64,000 bases of DNA from Narcine bancroftii (taxonomy: Eukaryota), in assembly GCF_036971445.1 (NCBI RefSeq), contig NC_091476.1, forward strand, positions 10,354,001 to 10,418,000, in the 5' to 3' direction. Of this stretch, positions 5,470 through 60,906 are shown one piece after another (position 1 is the first letter of the stretch; each line of letters begins with the position of its first letter). A program made the translations under genes and the position numbers. A model generated the notes under the pieces. The model saw only the letters and a list, made by a program, of their open reading frames with translations. It searched no databases and was not told the origin of the DNA.

Positions 5470-5800
5470 GCTGCTGCTATCAGGAAAGAGGTCTAGGTGC
5501 CACAAGACTCACACCACCAGGTTCAGGAATAGCTGCTACCCCTCCACCATCAGACATCAATCAGGGACGAATTTAAGGACTCTTACTTGTGCACTTTATT
5601 GATTTTCTTTGCTCTCCCTGTATTGAACAGTTTGATTGCATTATCTGTTTACAGTTTTTTTTTGACGGTTTACATGTTCATGCTTTGTGCAGTTAAATTT
5701 TGCACAACCAATTAATGGTAATTCTGCCGCATCCACGGGAAAAGGGAATCTCAGACTTGTATGCAATGACATGCATGTTCTGACAATAAATCTGAAAATG
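5470..5800 (+). mobile_element. Rex/Babar-like LINE 3' end fragment
   Basis: C-terminal coding remnant plus a 3' tail GACAATAAATCTGA resembling other copies in the window. Confidence 0.55.
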
Positions 5801-5825
5801 TAGATCGTGTATGCAAAAAACTTAC

Positions 5826-5950
5826 ATAGGTCCAAATTGAAGCACAGAATACTAATCCTCCTGCCAAGATAATATTTCCATATTTGTCATGGAAGTCAGG
5901 TTCAACTTTGTGATGAGCTTGTCTTGCAGCAATTTGGCGAATGCTCCGAC
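5826..5950 (-). CDS. COX7B: COX7B coding exon 2
   Basis: Encodes GRSIRQIAARQAHHKVEPDFHDKYGNIILAGGLVFCASIWTY, with the COX7B signature PDFHDKYGN and the TM helix. Acceptor AG at 5952-5951, donor GTAAGT at 5825-5820. Confidence 0.95.
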
Positions 5951-6442
5951 CTTGCAAGAGCACAAGTTAACATTTTAAAATTAATTCCACTTTAACACAG
6001 TCGGGAAAAGTCATAAAATAACAGAAGTGGCTTTCTACAACCTTTCTCGATAACGTTTTACGCAACAGCCAATTTTCAATGCATTGTGTTTTATGGAGTG
6101 GTTGAGAAACATGAACACTTTTTGAAAGTTATTTAACCGTATCAACTAATTGATACAATCCTTCAGTCGTTATTGTCCCATTAAAAACTCATTGGAACTT
6201 ATTGACAATGGGAGGGGACGTTTGAAACCTGCTGATGATTTCAATGCCACGTCGCCACTCTCCTTTCAAATTCGTTCATCTCCATAAACCTGTCAAATGT
6301 AATCTCATCCCAAACCTTCTCTAGAACCCCGTTATGGCAACGGTCCTCCAGGCTCCCACAGAATTTAACTTTTAAATAGAATTTACTTGGGTTCATCTAA
6401 ACAAGCCATCCAGCGAATCACGCCATCCCAAACACCAGGGAA

Positions 6443-7070
6443 ATGGGGAGAGGGGAGAGGGGAGGAGTGGGGGAGAGGGGGAGGGGGGGGAGGGGGGAGG
6501 GGGGGAAGGGGGGGAGGGGGGAAGGGGGGAGTGGGGGAAGGGGGGGAGTGGGGGAAGGGGGGGAGTGGGGGAAGGGGGGGAGTGGGGGAAGGGGGGGAGT
6601 GGGGGAGGGGGGAGGGGGGAGGGGGGAGGGGGGAGGGGGGAGGGGGGAGGGGGGGAGGGGGGGAGGGGGGAAGGGGGGGAGGGGGGAAGGGGGGGAGGGG
6701 GGGAAGGGGGGGAAGGGGGGAGGGGGGGAAGGGGGGGAAGGGGGGAGGGGGGAGGGGGAGGGGGGAGGGGGGGAAGGGGGGGGGAAGGGGGGGGGGAAGG
6801 GGGGAGGGGGGGAAGGGGGAAGGGGGGGAGTGGGGGAAGGGGGGGAGTGGGGGAAGGGGGGAGTGGGGGAAGGGGGGAGTGGGGGAAGGGGGAGTGGGGG
6901 AAGGGGGAGTGGGGGAAGGGGGGAGTGGGGGAAGGGGGGGAGGGGGGAAGGGGGGGGAGTGGGGGAAGGGGGGGAGGGGGGAAGGGGGGGAGTGGGGGAA
7001 GGGGGGGAGTGGGGGAAGGGGGGGAGGGGGGGAGGGGGGAAGGGGGGGAGTGGGGGTAGGGCGGGCAGGG
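6443..7070. repeat. Near-pure G/A low-complexity tract (units like GGGGGGAGTGGGGGAA) in COX7B intron 1
   Basis: About 620 bp of G-runs separated by A, AA or AGT. Confidence 0.95.
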
Positions 7071-11022: not shown

Positions 11023-12212
11023 GAGGTGGTTTCAAATTGACTGGGAATCTGAAAAAGAGGGAAAAAAGAGAATGGAGAAATTAATAGATTGTTTTACACT
11101 TAAAAAGATATTTTAAAACAAATGGCAAATGAGGTGAAGGCAATAATATTTTTAAAAATCAAAAGAAAAATACAAAATATACCATTGGCAGATAGGAGTA
11201 TTAAATCAGAGGGCATTACTCCAGTTCGAGAGTGCACTTGCACAAGAAAGATTTGTAAGTACACAGAAGAATGACGTATAAAACCATGTAACCTTATAAC
11301 AAAAAAAGAAAAACATTATTTTATAAAACATTATGTGCAAATGAGGAAGAAGCATTATCTAAAATAGATTGCTTTAGTGCAGATTTAGATATCGGGTGTG
11401 TTATTTACAAATCTGAACAATATTTTCTAATGCAGAACTGAAGTGGAACAGTAGGTGCCAGCAGACCTTTGGGAGAGCCCATCGTCCCTCTGACAATGAC
11501 GTTCTTAAAATACTAATTTTATCCTTACAAGAAGAGGTTGTGTCAACTGAACCTGCATTACCTAAAAAAAAGGGATAATATTGAAGGCAGTAGAAAGGAG
11601 GAAAATTCCTCGGATGGGAGGATGCCCAGAATAGAGGCTGAACATTTCAGTCTATATTCTCTGGGGTTTAGAAAAATTAGAGATGTCCTTATTGAGACAA
11701 GCAAGTCTTGAAGGTGAATGGCAAGGTAAATATAAAGATGTTTTCAATCGTGGGAACATCTCAAATGAAGGAATGGAATTTCAAAATAAAGTGGAAGTTA
11801 TTTGAAATGGATGTGCAGAGAAATTCCCTTCCCTTCTTCTGGAATTCTCGAGCTCAGAGCATTGTGGAGGCAAGATCATTTGAAGTTTTTAAGGTGGAGG
11901 TACATACATCTTTGAAAGACTGGGAATTTGCAGATTATGGGGTTCTCAGGGGTAAATCAGGCATAATCATTTTGAATGGTGGAGGAGGGTTGTGGGTCAG
12001 GTAGCCTTCTCATATGTTCCAATGACCAGAAAGAGAATGTGCAAAATGCACAAATTGCATCAGAGGGCAAAGTTAAACCAGATTAAAGGAGCTGGTAGAC
12101 AACAGGCCCACTAACTGCCACTTCAAAAAGTTATTTGCTTTCCTAATTACCTACATTTAAGCTTTCAGTGATTGGCATACAAGCGTTTGAACATCAATAC
12201 TCCCCAATCTGT

Positions 12213-14651
12213 GGAGGAGTCACGCGATGGAGTAGTGGCCGGACGGTGAACTCCAGCCCTCTCCAGAAAAGTCGGGAAAAACAAGAGAAAACACAAAGGC
12301 ACAGAAATAAAAGTTACAGAAAAGTGAGTATAAAGGTGGAAAGAAGATGGCGACAAAAAAAGAAAAGTCGAAAGCAACGGTAAGAAGAGAGGAAGAGAAG
12401 ACAAAGGAGGGAAAAGGTGAAGGCCTTACCTGTCCGAAGAGGCCCGCTGCGGAGAGAGAAACCCGCTCCCTCAGGTCGGTAAATAATGGACTACAAAAAT
12501 GGCTCGCAGAGCCGAACAAAAGTGCGCAACCGCGCATGCGCGAAGTTTCGCGCATGCGCGATGCGAATGAAAAAAAACACACCGACGGGAGGGGGGACCA
12601 GCTGGGGAGTCGATCTCCACAGCCGGCAACGACAGCTGCAGAACACCTGCAGCAAGAAGAGACCACAGAAGACAATAGAAACAAGATAGAAGAGGAGGAA
12701 AGGGCACCAAAGAAACAACAGATGGTCAACCCAGAGGAAGAAGAAGAGGAAGAGTATGGTGAAATAGAAGAAGAAAAGAGAGGCAAGGTAAAGGATATAC
12801 TTGCTCTTATTAGAGGATACATGGAATCATTTAAAGAATGGCAAACACAGGAATTTAAGGATTTAAGAAAAAGAATAAACAACACAGAGGAGAAAATAAT
12901 TAAAATGGAGATGACCTTAACAGAAATGGGAAAAAAAATGGACAAGATGGAAGAGCGGGCAGTAGCAGCAGAAATGGAGGTAGAAGACTTAAAAAAGAAA
13001 TTGGAGAAATCTAATAAAAAAACTAAAGAGACACAAGAACTACTAGCTCAAAAAATAGATACAATGGAAAACCATAACAGAAGAAATAACATAAAGATAG
13101 TGGGCCTTAAGGAAGATGAAGAAGGCAAGAATATGAGGGAGTTTATAAAAGAGTGGATCCCTAAGACCCTAGGATGTCCAGAACTACAGCATGAAATGGA
13201 AATAGAAAGGGCACATAGAGTATTGGCCTCTAAACCACAACCACAACAAAAACCAAGATCTATTGTAGTAAAATTCCTAAGATATACTACAAGAGAAAAG
13301 GTACTGGAGAAGACAATGGAAAAAGTAAGAGAGGGCAACAAACCACTGGAGTATAAAGGGCAAAAAATCTTCATTTATCCAGATATAAGTTTTGAACTCC
13401 TAAAGAAGAGAAAAGAGTTCAATACAGCAAAGGCGATTTTATGGAAGAAAGGGTATAAATTTATACTAAAGCATCCAGCGGTATTGAAAATATTTATTCC
13501 AGGACAACAAAACAGACTATTCGCGGATCCAGAAGAAGCACGAAAATTTGCAGAACAATTACAAAAATAGACTGAGGGAGGAAGACGGGTAATGAGAGTT
13601 AAAATGATCACGACTGATATGTATGTGGGTAAAGACAAAAATAAACTGAGGGATGAAGACGGGTAATGAGAGTAAAAATGATCACGATTGATATGTATGC
13701 AGGTAAAGAGGTATAAGAGTGAATAGAGACAATGAGCATACATGAATGTATCTGTACTTAGAGGAAAATATGGATAGTATAGACAAGAATTAATAAGGGA
13801 AGGTAATGGAATAGAGAGAATAAGGAGGGAATTAAAAGAGGGACCTTTGTGACATATGAAAAGTGAAATCTTTTCTGGGGGAGGCGGGGTGGGGGGAAAT
13901 AGCGGTCACTGCAAAATCAGTTGACGCTTGCGAGTGGATTCGCAAATCCAAATGGAGAGGGGAGATGTGGTTGTCCGACAAGGGATAAAGGACAACTCAG
14001 GAGGTGAAGGGGAGATTGGGGATAAATAAGATAGAAATAGGAGAATAAGGAAAATGTTAGATGTTGTAGGAATGTTGTCTTATAAAGAGTTGAAAATAAG
14101 AAAACAGAAATGGAAAAGGAGGAAAGGTAATGATGGAAAAACGGAAAGAGAAGATAAACAAAATATAAAAGGGCTACGCTGAACTATATGTCTTTAAATA
14201 TTAATGGAATACATAACCAAATTAAAAGGAAGAAACTACCAAATTTAAATGAATAAATGTATTCCATTAGAAAAAATAACATATTGGTTAAGAAATAACA
14301 TTGAAATATTCGAACAAGTATAGGAGCCTTACATTAAATACAATAGCGAAAACCTACCGGGGACAAACATTACCTAAGTTGATGGAAGGAGAAGGAAAGA
14401 AAAGAATGGACTCAGTAGAATTTCTGGTGTAATTTGGTTGAATGACAACATTGTCTGACTGGCTTAATGCAACCTAGATTGTATACCTAAAATGGATGAG
14501 AGGGGGGGGTGGGGGGGTGGTTTGGGAGGAAAGGGGGGGGGGGGGGAGAAAAAGTCACTGTATATGTGTGAAAAGAAATAGTGTATATCATGGCTAATGT
14601 GATTTATGGTGTGAAAAATAAAAAAATTTAAAAAAAAAAACAAAAAAAAAA
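12213..14651 (+). mobile_element. L1-clade element with intact ORF1 and almost all of ORF2 deleted (HAL1-like)
   Basis: 14-bp TSD ACTCCCCAATCTGT (12199-12212, 14652-14665), G-rich 3' UTR, AATAAA and poly(A) tail. Only the extreme N- and C-terminal ORF2 codons remain. Confidence 0.9.
12347..13570 (+). CDS. L1 ORF1p (coiled coil, RRM, CTD; Transposase_22-like), 407 aa, uninterrupted
   Basis: Motifs ENHNRRNNIKIVGLKE, IERAHR, PRSIVVKF and IFIYPDIS; coiled-coil heptads; ATG in AAGATGG context. Confidence 0.92.
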   Translation: MATKKEKSKATVRREEEKTKEGKGEGLTCPKRPAAERETRSLRSVNNGLQKWLAEPNKSAQPRMREVSRMRDANEKKHTDGRGDQLGSRSPQPATTAAEHLQQEETTEDNRNKIEEEERAPKKQQMVNPEEEEEEEYGEIEEEKRGKVKDILALIRGYMESFKEWQTQEFKDLRKRINNTEEKIIKMEMTLTEMGKKMDKMEERAVAAEMEVEDLKKKLEKSNKKTKETQELLAQKIDTMENHNRRNNIKIVGLKEDEEGKNMREFIKEWIPKTLGCPELQHEMEIERAHRVLASKPQPQQKPRSIVVKFLRYTTREKVLEKTMEKVREGNKPLEYKGQKIFIYPDISFELLKKRKEFNTAKAILWKKGYKFILKHPAVLKIFIPGQQNRLFADPEEARKFAEQLQK

Positions 14652-15169
14652 ACTCCCCAATCTGTCATTATTTGTGGTTTTTAGACTCCAGGAAAGTAAT
14701 AGCACAATCAAAGAATTTTGCTGCTACACGGGCAAGTCTATAAAGGAATGTGCAGGAATTTTGAGTCAATTCCTGCTCAGTGATTTATCCTGCAGGACCC
14801 CTACAACTTTTTGGAGGAAGCCTACAATGTAAATTGTACTGGAAAAATTCATTGTCGGTCATCCCTCTACTACACATCCAAACCACCAGGACTGATGCAC
14901 TCAGGTACTTGCAGTCTAAACAGGTGCTCAGTGTGTACGACCACATGAGCAGTATTTTTTTTCAGCGATTTTCCCGACATTACAGTCTAAAAACATTATT
15001 TAAAAATTATTCTGCTTTTCTGGAATTCATCACATTTTCCTCAAATGAGTAATTAAGAGAAAGGATGTGAAGAGGATTCAAGGGAAAAAGGCAACTTAAG
15101 TTAGTGGATGAGAACCTGGCAAATGCAATAAAACTGAAATAAATAGTGCCACTAGAATCCATGAAAAGG

Positions 15170-26173: not shown

Positions 26174-27842
26174 ATGGTGCAGCATTTCCGCTATTTCTTG
26201 GAGGGGAGGACTTTTACCACTTTCACTGACCATAAACCCCTCACTCAGTTGCTCACAGTGGCAAAGGATCCATGGTCGGCCTGCCAGCAGCATCACCTCC
26301 CCTTCATGTCGGAGTTTACCACCGACATTTGGCACAAAGCGGGGATGGACAACGTGGTGACCGATGCACTCTCACGACTGGCCATCTGTGTGCTGACACC
26401 CGGCCTCGACTTTGACCAGCTTGCCCGGGACCAGAAGTCCGACGAGGAGACGCGAGCCTTCAGGACTGTGGTACCATCCTATGTGATGTCTCCATGGGTA
26501 CCCCGTGGCCAGTCGTTCCCCAGCTGTGGTGCAGGCAAGTCTTCCATCACTTCAACAACTTTTCACACCCGTCCATCAGGTCCACGGTCCGTATGGTGGC
26601 AGAGCGGTTCGTCTGGCATGGGCTGCGGAAGCAGATCGTGGGCTGGGCCAGAACATGCACCCATTGCCAGATGCCCAAGGTGCAGAGGCACACCAGGGCG
26701 CCCGTGCAAGTGTTCAAGTATGTCCGGGAACGGTTCAGCCACATTCACGTGGTCATACTCTGGCCCTTACCAGTTTCCCAGGGCAACCGTCACCTGTTCA
26801 CGGTGGTAGGCCGCACCGCTCGTTGGCCTGAGGCGATCCCAATGGCGGATGCCTCCACTGACTCCTGCTCCTGAGCGCTGTTGCACGGTTGGATCGCCCG
26901 GTTTGGTGTTCCGAATCACCACACCAGCAATCGGGGTGCCCAGTTCACCTCTGCGCTCTGGGCACAGCTTGCCAACAGGTTGCCAACAGGTTGGCGATAG
27001 AGCTACACCGCTCCACGGCCTATCACCCACAGGCCAATGGGCTGGTCAAGCATCTGCACCGCCACCTTAAGTCGGCACTTATGGCCCAACTCACCGGTCC
27101 CGACTGGGTGGACGAACTGCCTTGGGTGCTCCTGGGCATCCACTCTACGCCCAAGGAGGACCTGCAGGCGTCATCAGTTGAGCTGGTCTCCGGCACACTG
27201 CTGGCACTGCCCGGGGAGTTCATCAACGCACCTCACAACCCCCAGCAGTCGCCGCACAAGGTACTTCCCCACCTCCGGGCCCACTTGGACTCCTCCGCAC
27301 CTCCACCGCCATCCAGACACTGCAATATTACATCCCCAGCGAGCTGCACTCTGCAGAGTACGTTTTTATTTGGTGGGGCCCGCCCGCGGCACCTCTGCAG
27401 AGACCTTACGAGGGGCCGCACAGGGTTGTCCAGCGTTCAGCGTCTACGTTCACGCTGCACATCAGCAGCAGGTGGGAGCTGTTCACTGTGGACAGGCTGA
27501 AGCCAGCTCCCCTCGACCCCACCGAACGAGTGATTGTGGCCCATCCCAAGAAGCGAGGCCGCCCAGCTAAGAAGGACATTGGCCCCGCTTGTAATCCACG
27601 TGGCGGGGCAGCCGGCCAAAATGGCACTGTCGGGAGGGGCAGGGGGGGTGGTTTCCCCTTCTTCTCGGCCCTGGGCTCAGAAGCCCGCGACGGGGACCAC
27701 ATGACACCCAAGTGGCGTCGGCACCCCCAGTGCGGTTCTCAGCCGGGTCCGGGCTGGGAGTACAAGTGCAGCCCGGCAGCCCCCAATGAACCAGTTTTTC
27801 TGCTCACTGAGCTCAACCCGTCTGGTTGTGTGTGTTCTTTCA
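26174..27842 (+). mobile_element. Gypsy/Ty3 LTR retrotransposon remnant (RNase H, integrase, probable 3' LTR)
   Basis: FTDHKPLT and NVVTDALSR (RNase H), HHCC-like zinc module, and YHPQANGLV (integrase core). Frameshifts include an 11-bp duplication at 26969-26990. Putative LTR from about 27590 (TGT) to 27842 (CA). Confidence 0.85.
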
Positions 27843-42300: not shown

Positions 42301-43857
42301 CTTTGGCTAACATTGCAACTGCTAGTCCTAGACCTCCAAGCACATTTCTGTTGTGGCTACAACATCCCATTGTTCTGTACCTATCCATGTCCTAATTTTG
42401 TCCATTTACCTCGTCGGGGATTTGTTTTCAAAATAAACAAAGTTTACCTGTTGTGAGCAAATTTAAATTCCTGCGAGTTACAGTTTCAGAAGACATTTTG
42501 AGATATGGCCAGAACAGAACATAGATGTAAGTTGAAGAGTACGTGTATTTCTCTCTTGAATAGTCAACCACTTTTGAATATCTCTTAAGATCTTGTATTT
42601 TTCAATCAAGTCCCTTTTTGCTATTCTAAACTGCAGATACAAACTTAGCCTGTTTTACCCTTAAGACAACCTGCCTATTTCAGTAAACCTTTGAACTTTG
42701 ATATCCATTCTTAAATAAAATCAAAACTTCTCGCTCTTGCCCCTGAAACAGAACCCCCTCTACATTTCGGTATTAATTTTCCCTTAATTTGTTAGCTTTC
42801 CTAAATTACTTCCAATATACTAGTCTTTTGTGAATTATTCAACAGGAAACTCAGAACCCTGTGCATCTCAGAGGTGCAGTCGCTTACAATTTTAGAGAAT
42901 GTTTTAATTTTTTGTTGCTCCCTGCAATGTTCTCCCTGCAGTGTTCTCCCTTTTCAAGCTATTGGTCCCCTCACTGTGGCTGAAATTCAAATTGCATATT
43001 CAAGAAATCTAAAGTAAAAACAGAGCCATAGAAATGTCCAGGAAATCATGCAGTTTCTGAGAAGAGAAAAAACTGCATTACTATTGCAGATGGATGAGCT
43101 TGGCAATTCTGAGGGGAAAATGTGAATTATCTGCAGCTACTGAATTCAGCATTCACTTATGAAGATATAATGTGCCCAGATTAAAGGTGCTGTTTCTCAA
43201 GCCAATGTTGATGCCACATAAGAACAGATTTTTACTTGAGGGGGATGGGCTGAGTAGTAAAAGAAGTTTTGTGTTAGTTGGAGTCTGAATTCAAATCATT
43301 TTGGCATGAGTAATTTCTATTAGGAAACTGCAGATTCAATTCGATATAAATTTGTTGAGAAGTGTTTTGTACTTCAGCCAGCCGATAATTGTGTATTTAG
43401 TCATTTAGTTCACCACTTGGGATGGTACTGAAATGCACGAGCTGGATAAAGGTGGCCTGATTTGATTAATTTCAGTCTAAGTGATAAAATTGAAGGTCTA
43501 GATTGACCTTGGATTCAACCCAGAGATCCTTGCAAGAAAGTAGATGAACAGTATCCAGTTTGACGATGATGCCTTTTCACTCTTGAACAGTGAAGGTCAA
43601 GTGTTATCACTTGCATGGAGAATTGAGGTGATATTGTAGTTCCATGGCCTTAAGCCAGTGTTGTTATTTTTGGGGGAAAAATGGCTGTTTCACTGATATG
43701 ACAAATTTGCTAACTCTTTTCAAGACTCCCTCTCATGAAGGATTATCATACATTTCCTGTGATTTCATTGACTGTTTGCAACCATTCTTTGCAAAGAATG
43801 TTGTTTAATCAAATATTTCTTTGTATTTTCCCCAGAGTATATGTGAACTATCTAAAC

Positions 43858-44722
43858 ATGGATGCTGGCAATATTGCAGAATCTACCAACTGTCTTCCCA
43901 AAGAAAGTGCCCAAAATAACACCAGTAATCCGTCTACTTCTGTGGATATGGATGTTTCATTCGATTCTTCAGAGCCTTGTTTAGAAAGGGTTCAAAATTC
44001 CACTGCTGATGAAGGGAGTTCCCTTAAGACACCACCTGTTAATGAACAAGTCACAGTAAAGCTGAATACAGATGGAGGTAATGAAGTATGGATTAAACCA
44101 AAAAACTTCAGTGAAGGAAATGGGGAAAGAAGAGAACTGGAAGCATTTTATAATGATTCCCCTTCAGGTGATGGACATACTGGTCCTTCGTTATACAGAT
44201 TGAATGATCCTTGTAGACCAGATGAAGAGGGAAGCACAATAGATTATTTGTTGCAGTCTGTGGACTCAACATCCAACAAAGGGGCAGCTGACGTCAAAGA
44301 GGTTTCTGAGAATGACGATGCTTTGTATTCTTTTGAAAATCAACCAGAGCACATGGATACATTAATAAACAAAGATATCCCAGAAACAACCCAGCAAACA
44401 GACGTGCCTGAGGAAGGTACAACCCTTAAAAGCAATGCAGGAATAGAATCAGATGTGGAAGAGATTGCTGAAATGGTTGATAATGGTCAACAGTCACCAT
44501 CTAATGATAAAGACAGCAGGTCACTGTTACCTCAGAGTGAAGATGTGGATGACGCATGTTACGTGAACGCTGAGCAGGAACCCAAGGCCACAGAAATAAT
44601 AACCGAAGAAGGCAATGGACAAAATGAATCAGAGGAGAAACAGCTGGGTGAAAAAAAAAGTGACACTTGTAAGTCTCGATCTAAACGATCTTCTAGTGCA
44701 GGGTCTTCATCAATGATTGAAG
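43858..44722 (+). CDS. ZMYM3: ZMYM3-like first coding exon (acidic, disordered N-terminus)
   Basis: Acceptor TTTTCCCCAG ends at 43835, AACATGG start at 43858, 865-nt open frame, donor G/GTAAGC at 44722/44723. Assigned by position and phase, not by sequence similarity. Confidence 0.75.
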
Positions 44723-47412
44723 GTAAGCATCTATCGTTTTCTAAGCTGGTCCTCCAACTTTATCTTATGGATCAGTGGATTTAAAAAAAAAAGCTGAGCT
44801 TGTCTCTCCATTGCAATGCTGCTCCTTCCTAGATTGTCTGAGTTCAGAAGGCAGATTACACCTTGCCTTCTCAAACACTTGTATCAGACTCCCGTTCTAC
44901 TTCCTCATTAATTCACTGTAAAGTTTAAAAAAGTTACCCACAGAAGTTGTTTGTCAGTCTCTCAAGGTTAGTTCAATTGCAGCCAATTTACTGATTTCAA
45001 TTTTTTATATTAGACAGGTTTAATAATCAATTGTTATAATGTCCTGGGAGTCGAGCCTTTCTTAGAAAACTTAAATTGCATTGCAATTCTGTTTGTATAA
45101 GACCACTGATGTTAATAGTTGCATGTTTGATCCTCTACTCTGGCCGTATGCAGTAATTGTTCTGGCCTAACTTTTTCTCTGAATAATATATCGTAAAAAT
45201 TTTGCATCAATTGTTATTTACTGTTTTGGAATAGAAGAGCCCAAACAAAAAGTAAGAATAAAGGAAGAGGGGGACCTTGGACATGGCAGGAAATGGAAGA
45301 TGTGTGGGTGGGGGTAAGTGGTTGAGATTTGGGTGTGTGAGTTTTGATTAAGTGGATATCTTATTTAACTATAAAATTTCTCATTCAGCTGCATGAGTTA
45401 ACAATTTTCTACTTCAGATGACTATTTTTGGGTACTTTTGAACATTGAGTTTGAGAGGCTGATAAATGTTTAGTTTTCCGTCTTTCTGGAATGGGAGAAG
45501 GTTGGGTCAGAATCTTTTTCCTAAACTGGTCCTGAAGGATGTTCCTCATTTAAAAAAAATGTATTTCAATGTCCAATTTGCTGCTTTGTTTGCACTTATT
45601 TCGTCATTAACTTCAATCTTAACAGATTTATCTACTATCTTGAGATCTTTTCAGAATGTGATTTCTTCTGTTTTTAATTTACTTTTTCCCTCTTGTATAC
45701 TTCCAACTCTTAATCGTTTTGGGAATTTGATCTTGCCTTGTGCAGATTGTCTTCGTATCTAGTTCTCCTATCTTCAGATTTAGAAATATTGAGGATTGCA
45801 ATAAAAAAGACAAATTCTGACTTGGATAAACCACTATTGGCTTATTTCTTCAAATGTTGAAGGGTATTTTGTTTTAACTAAGGTAAATTTGAGTATTCAT
45901 CCTTTTTTTGGAAATAGTTTGTGGAGTTGCTGAGTGCAAAGGTCTAATGTTGCACGGATATCAGTCAATTGATTGTTGGATTGCAGAATTTGCAGCACCG
46001 GGGAAGGTTAAATTCATATTAACCCTGCATTTTCTTCTCTCACCACTGCCCCCCCAACCAACAACCTAGTTCCAGGTTAATATCCAGTGATTGGAGGTGG
46101 AAGGCTTTGGAAGTAGAGCTGGAATTAAAGGAATTCTTAATTTTTCCCCTGGTTCTTAGTTATTTTCATAACTGACCGTTATGCTACTGATGGGGGAGGG
46201 GGGTGTTAAAAAACAAAAACATTGGAGGGAATGTAATCAGAAAATACTGTTTTAGTTCTTGAAATAATACCCTCTATTTATACTGCTTCTCGTGATATTT
46301 CTCACAAAGTGCTTCACATCAATTTCAATGATACGCATCTACCATAAGAATATTGATTTCATTACTTTATATACTCCTGATATCTGCTGCTGTCGTGTGG
46401 TATATTTACTGCATTGACAAGCATTGTGTCATTTACAGATTTCAAAATTGTACTTTCAATGGTCAAGTCTATCCATGCTTGTTTGGACAAGAATCAAATT
46501 CGATTCTGATGCCATCGCCTCGAGGCTCCAATTGTACATTTTCTCCAGTCAAAAAAAATTTGTTCACTAATCGATAATCTTGGCATTCCATCCCATTGAC
46601 AGTTGTGTACACAAATTATCTTTGTTTTCTGGTATACATCTTCCATTTCTTCCGCAGCTACTCTTTTTGTTATTTCATCTTAGAACTTGCATGCATTAGG
46701 CTTTTGTTCCTTTTAGTTTAAAGTGAAAATTATCTTCCTGGCACTGATATCTGACTGATTCTTGTCATTGTCAAGTTTATATCTCTGCACATTTTTTTTG
46801 GAACAGTAGCAGTGGCAATTCTCAGTCCTTTACATTCATATCCAAGAAACAGTTATTTTCTTCTTGGCTCTGTTCCTTACCTTGGATGCATCCCATCTAG
46901 AATTGATAAATTGGTAGCTTTGAATTATGCACTCTGTCTTTTTAAAATCTTAATCCTTTTGCAACATTAACTATCCTCTTCAGGTGGAAAGGACTCACTT
47001 TATTGTTGCTAATTTCTCTACAGTTTTTGAGCTGTAAAGTTCTTGAAGATTTTGTTTTTTTTTGTTTTCTACTTTTTTCATCATCTATACATTATTTAAA
47101 AAAAAAATTTCTCCCCCACCCCCACAAACTTGATAGAAGCCAGAGCTGCCTTTAACCTTTGCGTTTATCTGCCAGGGATGTCTAGTTTTGAATGTTTCAC
47201 CTTTCCACTTAGTGGAAAAATGCTATTTTTTTTTTTTACTGATCATCTGGTTTCTTGGGCAATCCCAATTTCCAGTTCGCAGATCTAAATGGTTTTAGTG
47301 ATCACTGAAATAGACTTGTGTGAATTTTTTTGATAGTTTCTAGAACTAATTTATGATTCATTAGCTTCAGCATAATTCATGTATTATGGTTAATTCCTGC
47401 AGAGTAATTGTT

Positions 47413-58701: not shown

Positions 58702-59020
58702 CCAAGGATAATTCCACCATGACAAACAACATTAAGCAGGAGGATGATTATGTTTCACGGCGGCCAAGACGCACCACAAGATTATCTCTACAAGCAGCTC
58801 AGGCCCAAGCCCAAGCCGAAGTTCAAGCTCCAACTCCTCGGCCTCAAAGGTCTTCACGGTCCCTGGTGAAAGTAACGTGTGCTAACTGCAAAAAGCCACT
58901 GCAAAAGGGGCAAACTGCATACCAGAGAAAAGGAGCACCTCAACTCTTTTGCTCTTCTTCCTGTCTCACAACCTATTCTCAGAAACCATCATCGCTCAAG
59001 ATTTGCACTTTCTGCAACAA
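58702..59020 (+). CDS. ZMYM3: ZMYM exon encoding the first MYM/TRASH zinc finger
   Basis: Encodes CANCKKPLQKGQTAYQRKGAPQLFCSSSCLTTYSQKPSSLKICTFCN. PQLFCSSSCLTT, CTFC and the RPRR..R.SL motif resemble ZMYM3. Acceptor TTCTTTCCAG, donor AA/GTGAGT. The gene continues beyond the window. Confidence 0.88.
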
Positions 59021-60906
59021 GTGAGTAATAAATTAGTTTGTGCGCAGTTTTGATTCAAGCTAAAGTCGCCATCGTGACACTTACACAAGAGATCTATTTG
59101 CAATACAGTCTGTGTGTGCCTTCACTTATTGAAATAAAGATATGGAGAGAGAAATCCTAATTGCTTGCAGCTTGTTTAGGTCTTTCAACTGAAAGTTGCC
59201 AACATCCCATAGCCTGTGTGAGCTATGAGCCTCTCACTGGTCCACTGCCATGGTCACCATCGTGTAGGGTCATCTCCAATGCCTATACTTCTCAAGGTGG
59301 GGGGGGGGGGGGTGTGGGGTGTTTCTGGTGCTTGTGCTGGTCCACTGCTCCCTTGGAGTTGCAACTCCTTGAGGCCACTGCCAGCACTGGCACTGTGCTC
59401 ATAGGATTTTAAATAAATACACCTGTCAAGTCCTTTAACAAGCCACTTAAAGCCTATATGGAGCCGTTGGCCTCAGGACTGGGAGGTTGCACCCTGCAGA
59501 GGAGTGCTCTGTCTTCTCCCCAGGTTCATGACAGCACTGACATTTCAGCATCTCTGGCAGCGTCACAGTTTTTGTTTTTTTTTTTGCATAATTTCGCTTC
59601 TCATAATCCAGGGATTCTAGAGTTTAGTGATTTAGCACATGGAATTTGATTTTTAAATGAATTTCTTGTGATTAATACTACCCCTCCACTATCAGACTCC
59701 TCAGCCACAAACTCAGGGATGTATTACTTTTTTTTTAACTCTCTCTATAGTGCAATCAGTTTGTATACATTTCTTTATTGAGTACAGGTTTTTTTTGCAC
59801 TACCAATAAGTGGCAATTCTGTCTGGGCCACAGGAAAAAAGAATCTTAAGGTTATATGTGATGTCATGTATGTACTCTTGACAATAAATAAATGTGACAA
59901 AGAATACTAAAATTCTAACAGACACATCTGAAAGTGAAAAGACTTGATTGGAATTGCTTTGTAAATATTTTGCACACAAGTTTTGGGGGGGGGGTAAAAA
60001 ATTGGGGAAAAAGTAGTTTGTGTAAAGGAGAATGCCATCATGTGGTTTCTTCAATAAAAAGAGAACTACATGTAAAGGTTTTCTTATTCTAATGAAGCAT
60101 GGCAGAAGTGGTCAGATTTTTTGTGACAAAATAATTGTAATTTTTGGAAAGTCCTAATGAATGCTGGGGATTTGTATTTAACTTTTAAGTGTTCTGCATG
60201 TTTAAATTTCAAGTTGGGAATAAAGAATTGCCTGAATTAGGCCAATAGATATTGGTTTGGGAAATAATAAGATAGACATGTTTACATGATGGATAAAATG
60301 AATGACCTGAATGCAGAAACCCAGTGAATGCTGCATAGTTCATAGATGATAAACTACGACTGGGTGGCCACAGCAGAATTGGCTGCTACTGGTCCACTAC
60401 ATGACATTTCAGAATATAATAATCTTAAATTGTATTAACTAGGTGTAGACTAAAAAAGATTTTTTAAGTATTATTATTTCTACCCTGACTGTATCCTTCA
60501 TTGGATAGCAAATACTGTGGCCATGTTGATAGGAATCAATTTGGAAACTCTACTATGATAAATTTTTTAAGTGCTTTAAATAGGATGAAGCTTTCAGTTT
60601 AAGTGGGAGCAACTCCAATTCTGCGGTCACTACTGAAATGAGTATTGAGATTGATCCCATGTATTGGAATTCAGAATTATCAGGACTTTGCAGCTGTATA
60701 TTTCCAATGTTAACTTTATCCACCTTTCACGACTGTTCATATCGGGGAGGCCAAACCTTTCTGGTTGAAAAAGAAAAATACAAAGAGTCACGGGCCAAAC
60801 AAGATTAAGCCCAGCAGTTTTCAATTCATAACACTGCAAGAAAAATGGTGTATTTAGACCATAAACTCCTGTACTATTGAAAATTCATTTTCTATCAAAT
60901 TAACTA

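What the first reader, a model, noticed from the sequence alone, without database searches (positions are those of the whole stretch)
12199..14665. ORF1-only L1 derivative with full retrotransposition hallmarks
Seen: an intact 407-aa ORF1, a 5' end that matches the other L1 in the window, poly(A) and a perfect 14-bp TSD. ORF2 is reduced to about 26 N-terminal codons (AGG at 14170 where the ATG is expected, then ATLNYMSLNINGIHNQIKRKKL), fused near 14246 to the ORF2 C-terminus MNKCIPLEKITY, which is also seen at the 3' end of the L1 at about 47780. Known: HAL1 elements are ORF1-only non-autonomous L1 relatives. Inference: this may be a young lineage-specific family that supplies its own ORF1p and borrows ORF2p in trans.
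Basis: partly seen in the sequence, partly recalled or inferred. Interest (0 to 1): 0.7.

Follow-up and report, generated by a model that had tools for sequence, protein, structure and literature searches.

The report
Ray half-L1 family trading with parent
This 2.4-kb insert is one of over 3,000 copies of a young LINE-1 jumping-gene family that lost its copying enzyme in one deletion but kept its RNA-packaging gene; it likely borrows the enzyme from the intact parent in the same genome (probably an electric ray) and appears to have passed part of that gene back to the parent.

Summary
Observation confirmed; family claim confirmed, with one correction. The element (12213-14651, 14-bp TSD) is a 6.03-kb L1 minus 3,590 nt of ORF2. 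Its junction occurs 3,291 times in the genome; the window's other L1 has its own deletion, which occurs once. Of 100 copies, 86 are full length and 76 have TSDs, all different; the 86 copies placed in a tree form one clade beside an intact parent lineage with the same target preference. The proposed dN/dS<1 test fails (about 1.0), but no stop or frameshift was fixed in ORF1 while the ORF2 stub lost its ATG and gained a stop. The two lineages share 11 derived alleles (1.2-1.6 expected), and 34 parent-type L1s carry a short ORF1 tract of the deleted family. It is a HAL1-type element, closest to rat RNHAL1; my searches found HAL1 only in mammals, but Repbase/Dfam were not available. This scan found the same family, and the back-transfer, before on other DNA.

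The parts
12199..12212 (+). Left target-site duplication (14 bp)
12213..12346 (+). 5' UTR (134 nt), starts GGAGGAGTCAC; presumed internal promoter, shared with the parent L1
   Evidence: the 5' 30-mer has 5,560 exact matches in the genome; promoter function inferred
12347..13570 (+). ORF1, 407 aa: disordered 1-144, helix/coiled coil 145-244, RRM and CTD 246-407
12531..12561 (+). GC-rich palindromic repeat in ORF1; hot spot of recurrent 18- and 31-nt deletions in other copies (intact here)
   Evidence: joints here also
12686..12781 (+). ORF1 codons 114-145: the tract whose deleted-family alleles are found in a subfamily of undeleted L1s
13561..13708 (+). Two 74-bp tandem repeats (92% alike) at the start of the inter-ORF spacer; 1 to 3 units in other copies
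13571..14169 (+). Inter-ORF spacer (599 nt), as in the parent
14170..14247 (+). First 26 codons of ORF2 with ATG changed to AGG
14247..14247 (+). Deletion junction: one shared A; 3,590 nt of the parent's ORF2 missing, out of frame
14249..14377 (+). Last 42 codons of ORF2 with a family-derived stop at 14321-14323
14378..14629 (+). 3' UTR with G-rich tract and AATAAA (14617-14622)
   Evidence: sequence; 92% to the parent's 3' part
14630..14651 (+). Poly(A) tail
14652..14665 (+). Right target-site duplication

Best explanation
This is a very young copy of a multi-thousand-copy ORF1-only (half-L1) family that arose by one 3,590-nt deletion from an L1 still intact in the same genome, and it likely spreads by making its own ORF1 protein and borrowing the parent's ORF2 enzyme. 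Shown: one junction in thousands of loci, new TSDs, one clade, a ladder of subfamilies running beside the parent's ladder, the same target preference, an open ORF1 in the inherited line while the ORF2 stub decayed, and mosaic copies in both directions. Inferred: transcription from the retained 5' UTR, coating of the RNA by its own ORF1p trimer, capture of parent ORF2p through the poly(A) tail, target-primed reverse transcription, and sequence exchange by template switching or gene conversion.
For: 3,291 junction matches vs 0 control and vs 1 for the window's other deletion. 86 of 100 copies full length, 76 of 100 with TSD, all different, median 16 bp as in the parent. 86 of 86 in one clade (support 0.72) inside the parent's diversity; same split in the 3' part. 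Target site 5'-(C)(A)T(C/T)/AA in both: T at -2 in 79% vs 78%, A at +1 in 84% vs 91% (73 and 32 sites). Parent competent: 8 of 40 with both ORFs open. Both lines recent: nearest-neighbour divergence under 0.5% for 36 of 86 and 8 of 35; this copy differs 0.05% from L044. ORF1: 0 stops among 100 substitutions on branches with 3 or more descendants, against 10 stops and 32 private frameshifts per 353 terminal substitutions (Fisher P=7e-5; trunk only P=0.003); the only fixed indel is in frame. ORF2 stub: AGG in 95 of 100, new stop in 75 of 100. A ribosomal-protein retrocopy with poly(A) and 16-bp TSD at 21062-20636 shows trans-mobilisation of poly(A) RNA in this genome.
Against: ORF1 dN/dS on inherited branches is about 1, also in RRM+CTD (5 N, 2 S; few changes), so protein-level constraint is not shown by that ratio. 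Stops alone are not significant (P=0.13). One sister pair (L249, L250) shares a frameshift, and 48 frameshift events in all include recurrent ones that I judged scattered by eye on the tree. Parsimony counts are inflated by mosaicism, and some private homopolymer indels may be assembly errors. Clade support is moderate (0.72). All 100 copies come from the first 112 Mb of one contig and were picked by an exact match, which favours young copies. No assay of expression or mobility.
Confidence: 0.85

Rival explanations
1. The family is real and trans-mobilised, but the open ORF1 is kept for the RNA's sake (translation protects the transcript from decay or brings it to ribosomes where ORF2p is made); the ORF1 protein itself comes from the shared pool.
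For: dN/dS about 1.0 on inherited branches, no clear protein-level constraint; absence of stops and frameshifts fits this equally well.
Against: Amino-acid changes on inherited branches avoid RRM+CTD (5 of 73 vs 66.5 of 234.5 on terminal branches, P=6e-5), though this is not significant against the spacer as yardstick (P=0.38); 9 of 11 alleles shared with the parent change amino acids. HAL1 passages in PMC3627910 and PMC2241872 argue for cis ORF1p.
Confidence: 0.2
2. Each short copy is made afresh from full-length L1 by splicing or a recurrent reverse-transcription jump; there is no self-propagating family.
For: The lost segment ends in AG; the parent is abundant (2,916 ORF2 starts).
Against: The lost segment begins AC/CT, not GT; short copies form their own clade with 49 alleles diagnostic against the parent and carry AGG and a stop that parents lack (0 of 30 and 1 of 36 otherwise broken); youngest short and youngest full copies differ by 5.8%.
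Confidence: 0.02
3. A one-off deletion in a single L1 copy, or copies spread by segmental duplication.
For: Such one-off deletions occur: the window's other L1 junction is unique; 8 of the 55 matches of the second deletion family lie in one ~17-kb tandem array.
Against: 3,291 loci; 76 different TSDs in 76; the three neighbouring pairs checked have unrelated or uninformative flanks.
Confidence: 0.01
4. The alleles shared by the short family and its parent are convergent substitutions at hypervariable sites under a common pressure, not sequence exchange.
For: 9 of 11 are non-synonymous and are interleaved with lineage-specific alleles; sites such as 121, 138 and 145 change repeatedly; the null does not model site-specific mutability.
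Against: Block mosaics exist in both directions (L269: codons 181-282 of short type in a full L1; L101, L031: parent-type spacer tracts in short copies); the 34-locus subfamily carries the silent Y137 change and reverts two parent-derived sites inside one tract.
Confidence: 0.2

Closest known systems
Rat RNHAL1 (passage in PMC2241872; PMC8535693)
   Same: Derived from L1 by deletion of ORF2, ORF1 only, 5' part near-identical to the currently active L1, thousands of copies (about 7,500 HAL1 in rat), still propagating, keeps its promoter.
   Different: Host is a cartilaginous fish by nearest named proteins; independent origin; 26+42 ORF2 codons still mark the scar; exchange with the parent is seen here and is not mentioned in the passages read.
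HAL1 of mammals in general (Smit 1999; Bao and Jurka 2010, not held; seen only through passages of PMC5753468, PMC3627910, PMC13756887)
   Same: Non-autonomous L1 derivative encoding ORF1p only; repeated independent origins (a second deletion family of the same parent exists here).
   Different: Described in those passages for mammals only; guinea-pig HAL1 kept ORF1 for 29-44 Myr, whereas this family spans only about 3% divergence.
ORF1-present bipartite non-autonomous LINEs: HeT-A (Jockey clade), Ag-Sponge (CR1 clade) (passage in PMC5786205)
   Same: 5' and 3' parts of an autonomous LINE joined by internal deletion, one ORF1-type protein, proposed to multimerise with the partner's proteins.
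   Different: Different LINE clades and hosts; no telomere role here.
Inter-family recombination in mouse L1 ORF1 (passages of PMC3600994)
   Same: Segments of the ORF1 coiled-coil region move between co-existing L1 families and found new families.
   Different: There donors are L1 families; here the likely donor is a non-autonomous ORF1-only derivative, and the tract is about 50-100 nt at the linker just before the coiled coil.

Membership tests
HAL1-type (half-L1) element | Derived from an L1-clade element | tested here: met
   94.7% over 2,036 nt and 92% over the last 400 nt to a 6.03-kb two-ORF element; ORF1p matches human L1 ORF1p
HAL1-type (half-L1) element | Encodes ORF1p | tested here: met
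   407-aa open frame; 43 of 86 full-length copies keep 395 or more codons
HAL1-type (half-L1) element | No functional ORF2 (no endonuclease, no reverse transcriptase) | tested here: met
   3,590 of 3,798 nt lost, start codon AGG, frameshift, stop
HAL1-type (half-L1) element | Amplifies as its own family with poly(A) and TSDs | tested here: met
HAL1-type (half-L1) element | ORF1 coding capacity maintained by selection | tested here: inconclusive
   No fixed stop or frameshift (P=7e-5 to 0.003) but dN/dS about 1
HAL1-type (half-L1) element | Mobilised by ORF2p of an autonomous L1 in trans | not testable with these tools
   Indirect only: intact parent, same target site and TSD length
Named mammalian HAL1 families (HAL1, HAL1B, RNHAL1) | Descent from a mammalian L1 | tested here: not met
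   Nested in a local L1 lineage; ORF1p about 24% identical to human ORF1p: same kind, separate origin
Autonomous L1 | Intact ORF2 with endonuclease and reverse transcriptase | tested here: not met
Spliced L1 product | GT...AG ends of the lost segment | tested here: not met
   ends AC..AG

The most novel reading that the evidence does not exclude
The ORF1-only parasite and its host L1 form one gene pool for ORF1: the parasite, with as many full-length copies as the parent, tries out ORF1 variants and hands them back, having founded at least one active parent subfamily (34 loci), and both lines are driven to the same residues at the linker and coiled-coil start, including a paired M184I/I187M swap at consecutive a/d core positions, because their proteins must work in mixed particles.
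Probability: 0.35. Interest if true: 0.72.

Novelty: new member of a known kind. Interest (0 to 1): 0.5.

Why it matters
Half-L1s are known from mammals, mostly as old families. Here a non-mammalian one is caught with its scar, its living parent and its whole subfamily ladder, all within a few percent divergence. That makes two open questions directly testable: how an ORF1-only RNA gets around the L1 enzyme's preference for its own transcript (roughly 2,800 full-length short copies vs roughly 2,600 parent ones, estimated), and whether non-autonomous derivatives feed variation back into the fast-evolving front half of ORF1p. It also warns that L1 counts and ORF1-based gene models in this clade are inflated by such elements (database proteins named FAM122B or GrpE-like are ORF1 pieces).

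Tried and rejected
DNA search with a 100-nt junction query returned nothing because common words are skipped; exact patterns were used instead. Ratio 2,916/10,871 as the parent's truncation rate: rejected, because many of 30 examined 3' ends were only 85-93% like the reference, i.e. older subfamilies. The 66 matches are mostly those older relatives. dN/dS<1: tested on 51+18 and on 86+35+12 copies, not found. Idea that the window's second L1 is a complementary ORF2-only family: rejected, junction unique at up to 2 mismatches. Expression: no RNA holder listed; runs only guessed to be RNA hold the junction in contigs, which is no evidence on expression. Empty-site allele of this insertion: no joint seen in 4 runs, but flanks were barely covered, so polymorphism is undecided. 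Runs labelled organisms C and D show low depth and no listed junction joint: no conclusion. The 'broken 100' count was a script offset error, corrected. No complex prediction was run: the two ORF1ps differ too little for it to discriminate. Literature searches for HAL1 outside mammals gave no such report; one search returned only general shark papers. Bao and Jurka 2010, Repbase and Dfam could not be seen and may list non-mammalian HAL1-like families; no supplements were read.

Full report
OBSERVATION. The anatomy is as described: 14-bp TSD at 12199-12212 and 14652-14665, 134-nt 5' UTR, 407-aa ORF1 (12347-13570), 599-nt spacer with two 74-bp repeats, 26 codons of ORF2 starting AGG (14170), the last 42 ORF2 codons (14249-14377), 3' UTR and A-tail. 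ORF1 matches human L1 ORF1p by sequence (E=3.5e-13) and by predicted fold (disordered 1-144, helix 145-244, then RRM and CTD; Foldseek E=1.3e-10 to the ORF1p trimer). The nearest named proteins are from Narcine bancroftii (89, 87 and 67% identity), so the host is probably an electric ray.

THE PARENT. A pattern for the undeleted ORF2 start has 2,916 exact matches. I fetched 40 of the first 45 listed (5 left out of the second batch: 2 of the second deletion family, 1 truncated, 1 with an insertion, 1 close neighbour, so the full-length share is slightly favoured). 35 of 40 reach the 5' end, 15 of 40 have the 1,265-aa ORF2 open and 8 of 40 both ORFs. Against copy L146 (6,030 nt) the window element aligns at 1-2036 (94.7%) and 5626-6025 (92.3%): 3,590 nt lost, one shared A, out of frame, ends AC..AG, so not a splice. 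The other L1 in the window (about 51499-47408, minus) is only 76-80% like this parent, lacks ORF1, and its own junction is unique in the genome.

THE FAMILY. The 25-nt junction has 3,291 exact matches, the reversed control 0; a lower bound. I fetched all 100 listed places (first 112 Mb of contig C1; L235 was scored on its neighbour L234's junction, so 99 distinct). 86 of 100 reach the 5' end, 76 of 100 gave a TSD of 9 or more bases, all different, median 16 (a few are A/T runs and doubtful); 43 of 86 keep ORF1 open. A tree of the 2-kb 5' part (85 fetched copies plus the window copy, 35 parents, 12 of a second family; L124 and L280 dropped for lack of an end match) puts all 86 in one clade (support 0.72) within the parent's older diversity, with a ladder of subfamilies beside the parent's own ladder (same split for the 3' part on 57+18 copies). 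The window copy is at the youngest tip, 0.05% from L044; youngest short and youngest parent differ by 5.8%. Target sites agree: T at -2 in 79 vs 78%, A at +1 in 84 vs 91%, A at +2 in 82 vs 84% (73 and 32 sites). Contigs of 3 of 4 public runs, with two organism labels, hold the same 3,590-nt joint; one may be the assembly's own sample.

SELECTION ON ORF1. But no stop lies on those branches (0 of 100 substitutions) against 10 stops and 32 private frameshifts per 353 terminal substitutions (P=7e-5; trunk P=0.003; stops alone P=0.13). The only fixed ORF1 indel is 6 nt; shared frameshifts are a recurrent 31-nt deletion at a palindrome (7 short, 5 parent copies, scattered on the tree by eye), A-run slips (4 and 3 copies) and a 5-nt deletion (2); one sister pair, L249/L250, shares a slip. 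In contrast the 200-nt ORF2 stub fixed two inactivating changes: AGG in 95 of 100 (ATG in 1, an oldest copy) and a stop in 75 of 100. An open ORF1 is thus needed in the source copies; whether for the protein or for the RNA is open.

EXCHANGE WITH THE PARENT. Of 61 alleles derived in the short family and 78 in the parent, 11 are the same (1.2-1.6 expected; 0 of 20,000 draws; the null ignores site-specific mutability); 9 lie in codons 101-200, 9 change amino acids, none lie in the spacer. Two are M184I and I187M, consecutive a/d positions by my heptad count. Block mosaics run both ways (L269; L101, L031; L129 by eye). A 49-nt pattern joining short-family alleles (codons 137, 138, 145) to parent alleles (150, 151) has 34 matches, the ordinary young parent type 546. 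Of 30 examined, all are parent type at nearly all of about 90 other diagnostic sites, 29 run on into undeleted ORF2 (1 is interrupted), all show short-family state also at codon 129 and in the Glu run (not selected by the pattern; the run is labile), 14 also K114I; 26 of 29 keep ORF1 open; L134 and L146 have both ORFs open. Short-family carriers of the tract have more private changes (1.1 vs 0.5 per kb, P=0.0004), which points to the short family as donor, though the exact-match sampling makes the recombinants look young.

MECHANISM. Shown: single origin, independent amplification, open ORF1, dead ORF2, intact contemporaneous parent, same target site, mosaics. Inferred from established L1 biology (own knowledge): Pol II transcription from the 5' UTR, ORF1p trimers coating their own RNA, ORF2p taken in trans via poly(A), target-primed reverse transcription; short length favours complete, promoter-bearing copies. 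A ribosomal-protein retrocopy (RPL38 by recall) with a poly(A) tail and 16-bp TSD at 21062-20636 shows that poly(A) RNAs are moved in trans here. Mosaics may come from template switching in shared particles or from gene conversion; I cannot tell these apart.

KNOWN SYSTEMS. It works like, and meets the testable defining features of, HAL1: ORF1-only non-autonomous L1 derivatives that arose several times in mammals (passages of PMC5753468, PMC3627910, PMC13756887), most closely rat RNHAL1 (passages of PMC2241872, PMC8535693); PMC5786205 groups HAL1 with HeT-A and Ag-Sponge (passage). ORF1 segment transfer between mouse L1 families is known (passages of PMC3600994); passages of PMC5872511 added nothing. 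Bao and Jurka 2010 was not held. Searches (listings only, apart from the papers named) found no half-L1 outside mammals and no transfer from a half-L1 to its parent; Repbase and Dfam were not available, so absence from print is not established. Earlier notes of this scan describe the same family and the back-transfer on other DNA of this genome; I reached the transfer result before seeing those, and they are not independent evidence.

VERDICT. A real, young, high-copy half-L1 family: new member of a known kind in a new host group, with well-supported exchange with its parent. Interest 0.5.

Noticed in passing
window 51499-47408 (minus): Older L1 (76-80% to the parent) whose 5' 60 nt join directly to mid-endonuclease, so ORF1 is missing; TSD-like CAATTACTCTGCAG; interrupted by an RTE-like insertion (about 50196-49307). 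Junction unique in the genome.
   Followed up: yes
L271-L290; first seen in L074, L075, L082: Second, older deletion family of the same parent (parent 2255 joined to 5475), 55 exact matches, own clade (12 of 12). The join is in frame and leaves a 192-aa mini-ORF2, open in 8 of 19 scored, while ORF1 is open in only 2 of 13 full-length copies. Eight matches form a ~17-kb tandem array on C1 near 384.1 Mb.
   Followed up: partly
window 21062-20636 (minus): Complete processed ribosomal-protein retrocopy (RPL38 by recall) with UTRs, about 50-nt poly(A) and 16-bp TSD, inserted into a young RTE-like element.
   Followed up: partly
window 12531-12561 and same site in other copies: Palindromic repeat in ORF1 is a hot spot: 18-nt in-frame deletion in 8 short and 3 parent copies, 31-nt frameshifting deletion in 7 and 5, mostly in older copies, which suggests loss after insertion.
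   Followed up: partly
L249/L250, L232/L233, L117/L118 (contig C1): Copies 10-30 kb apart share rare indels; the flanks checked (first two pairs) differ. Local hopping, gene conversion between neighbours or polishing artefact.
   Followed up: partly
L099, L234/L235, L049, L144, L087: New copies often sit in the A-tail or body of earlier L1 copies, giving tandem or nested elements.
   Followed up: no
P0002, P0003, P0004: Database proteins named FAM122B, GrpE-like and tRNA adenosine deaminase isoforms consist largely of L1 ORF1 sequence: probable gene-model contamination or exonisation.
   Followed up: no
window 31428-33000 and 6370-7050: 19-bp minisatellite with about 66 registers and a G-rich 8-9-bp repeat array.
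   Followed up: no
window 37181-38373: 245-nt inverted repeat (99%) 508 nt apart plus a 125-nt direct repeat; possible young inversion or small DNA transposon.
   Followed up: no
window 26174-27570: Degenerate LTR-retrotransposon-like RNase H/integrase fragments (by recall of motifs).
   Followed up: no
window 43735-44784 and 58719-59024: Host exons; the second resembles an MYM-type zinc finger (recall), probably of a gene starting at the GC-rich region near 28-29 kb.
   Followed up: no
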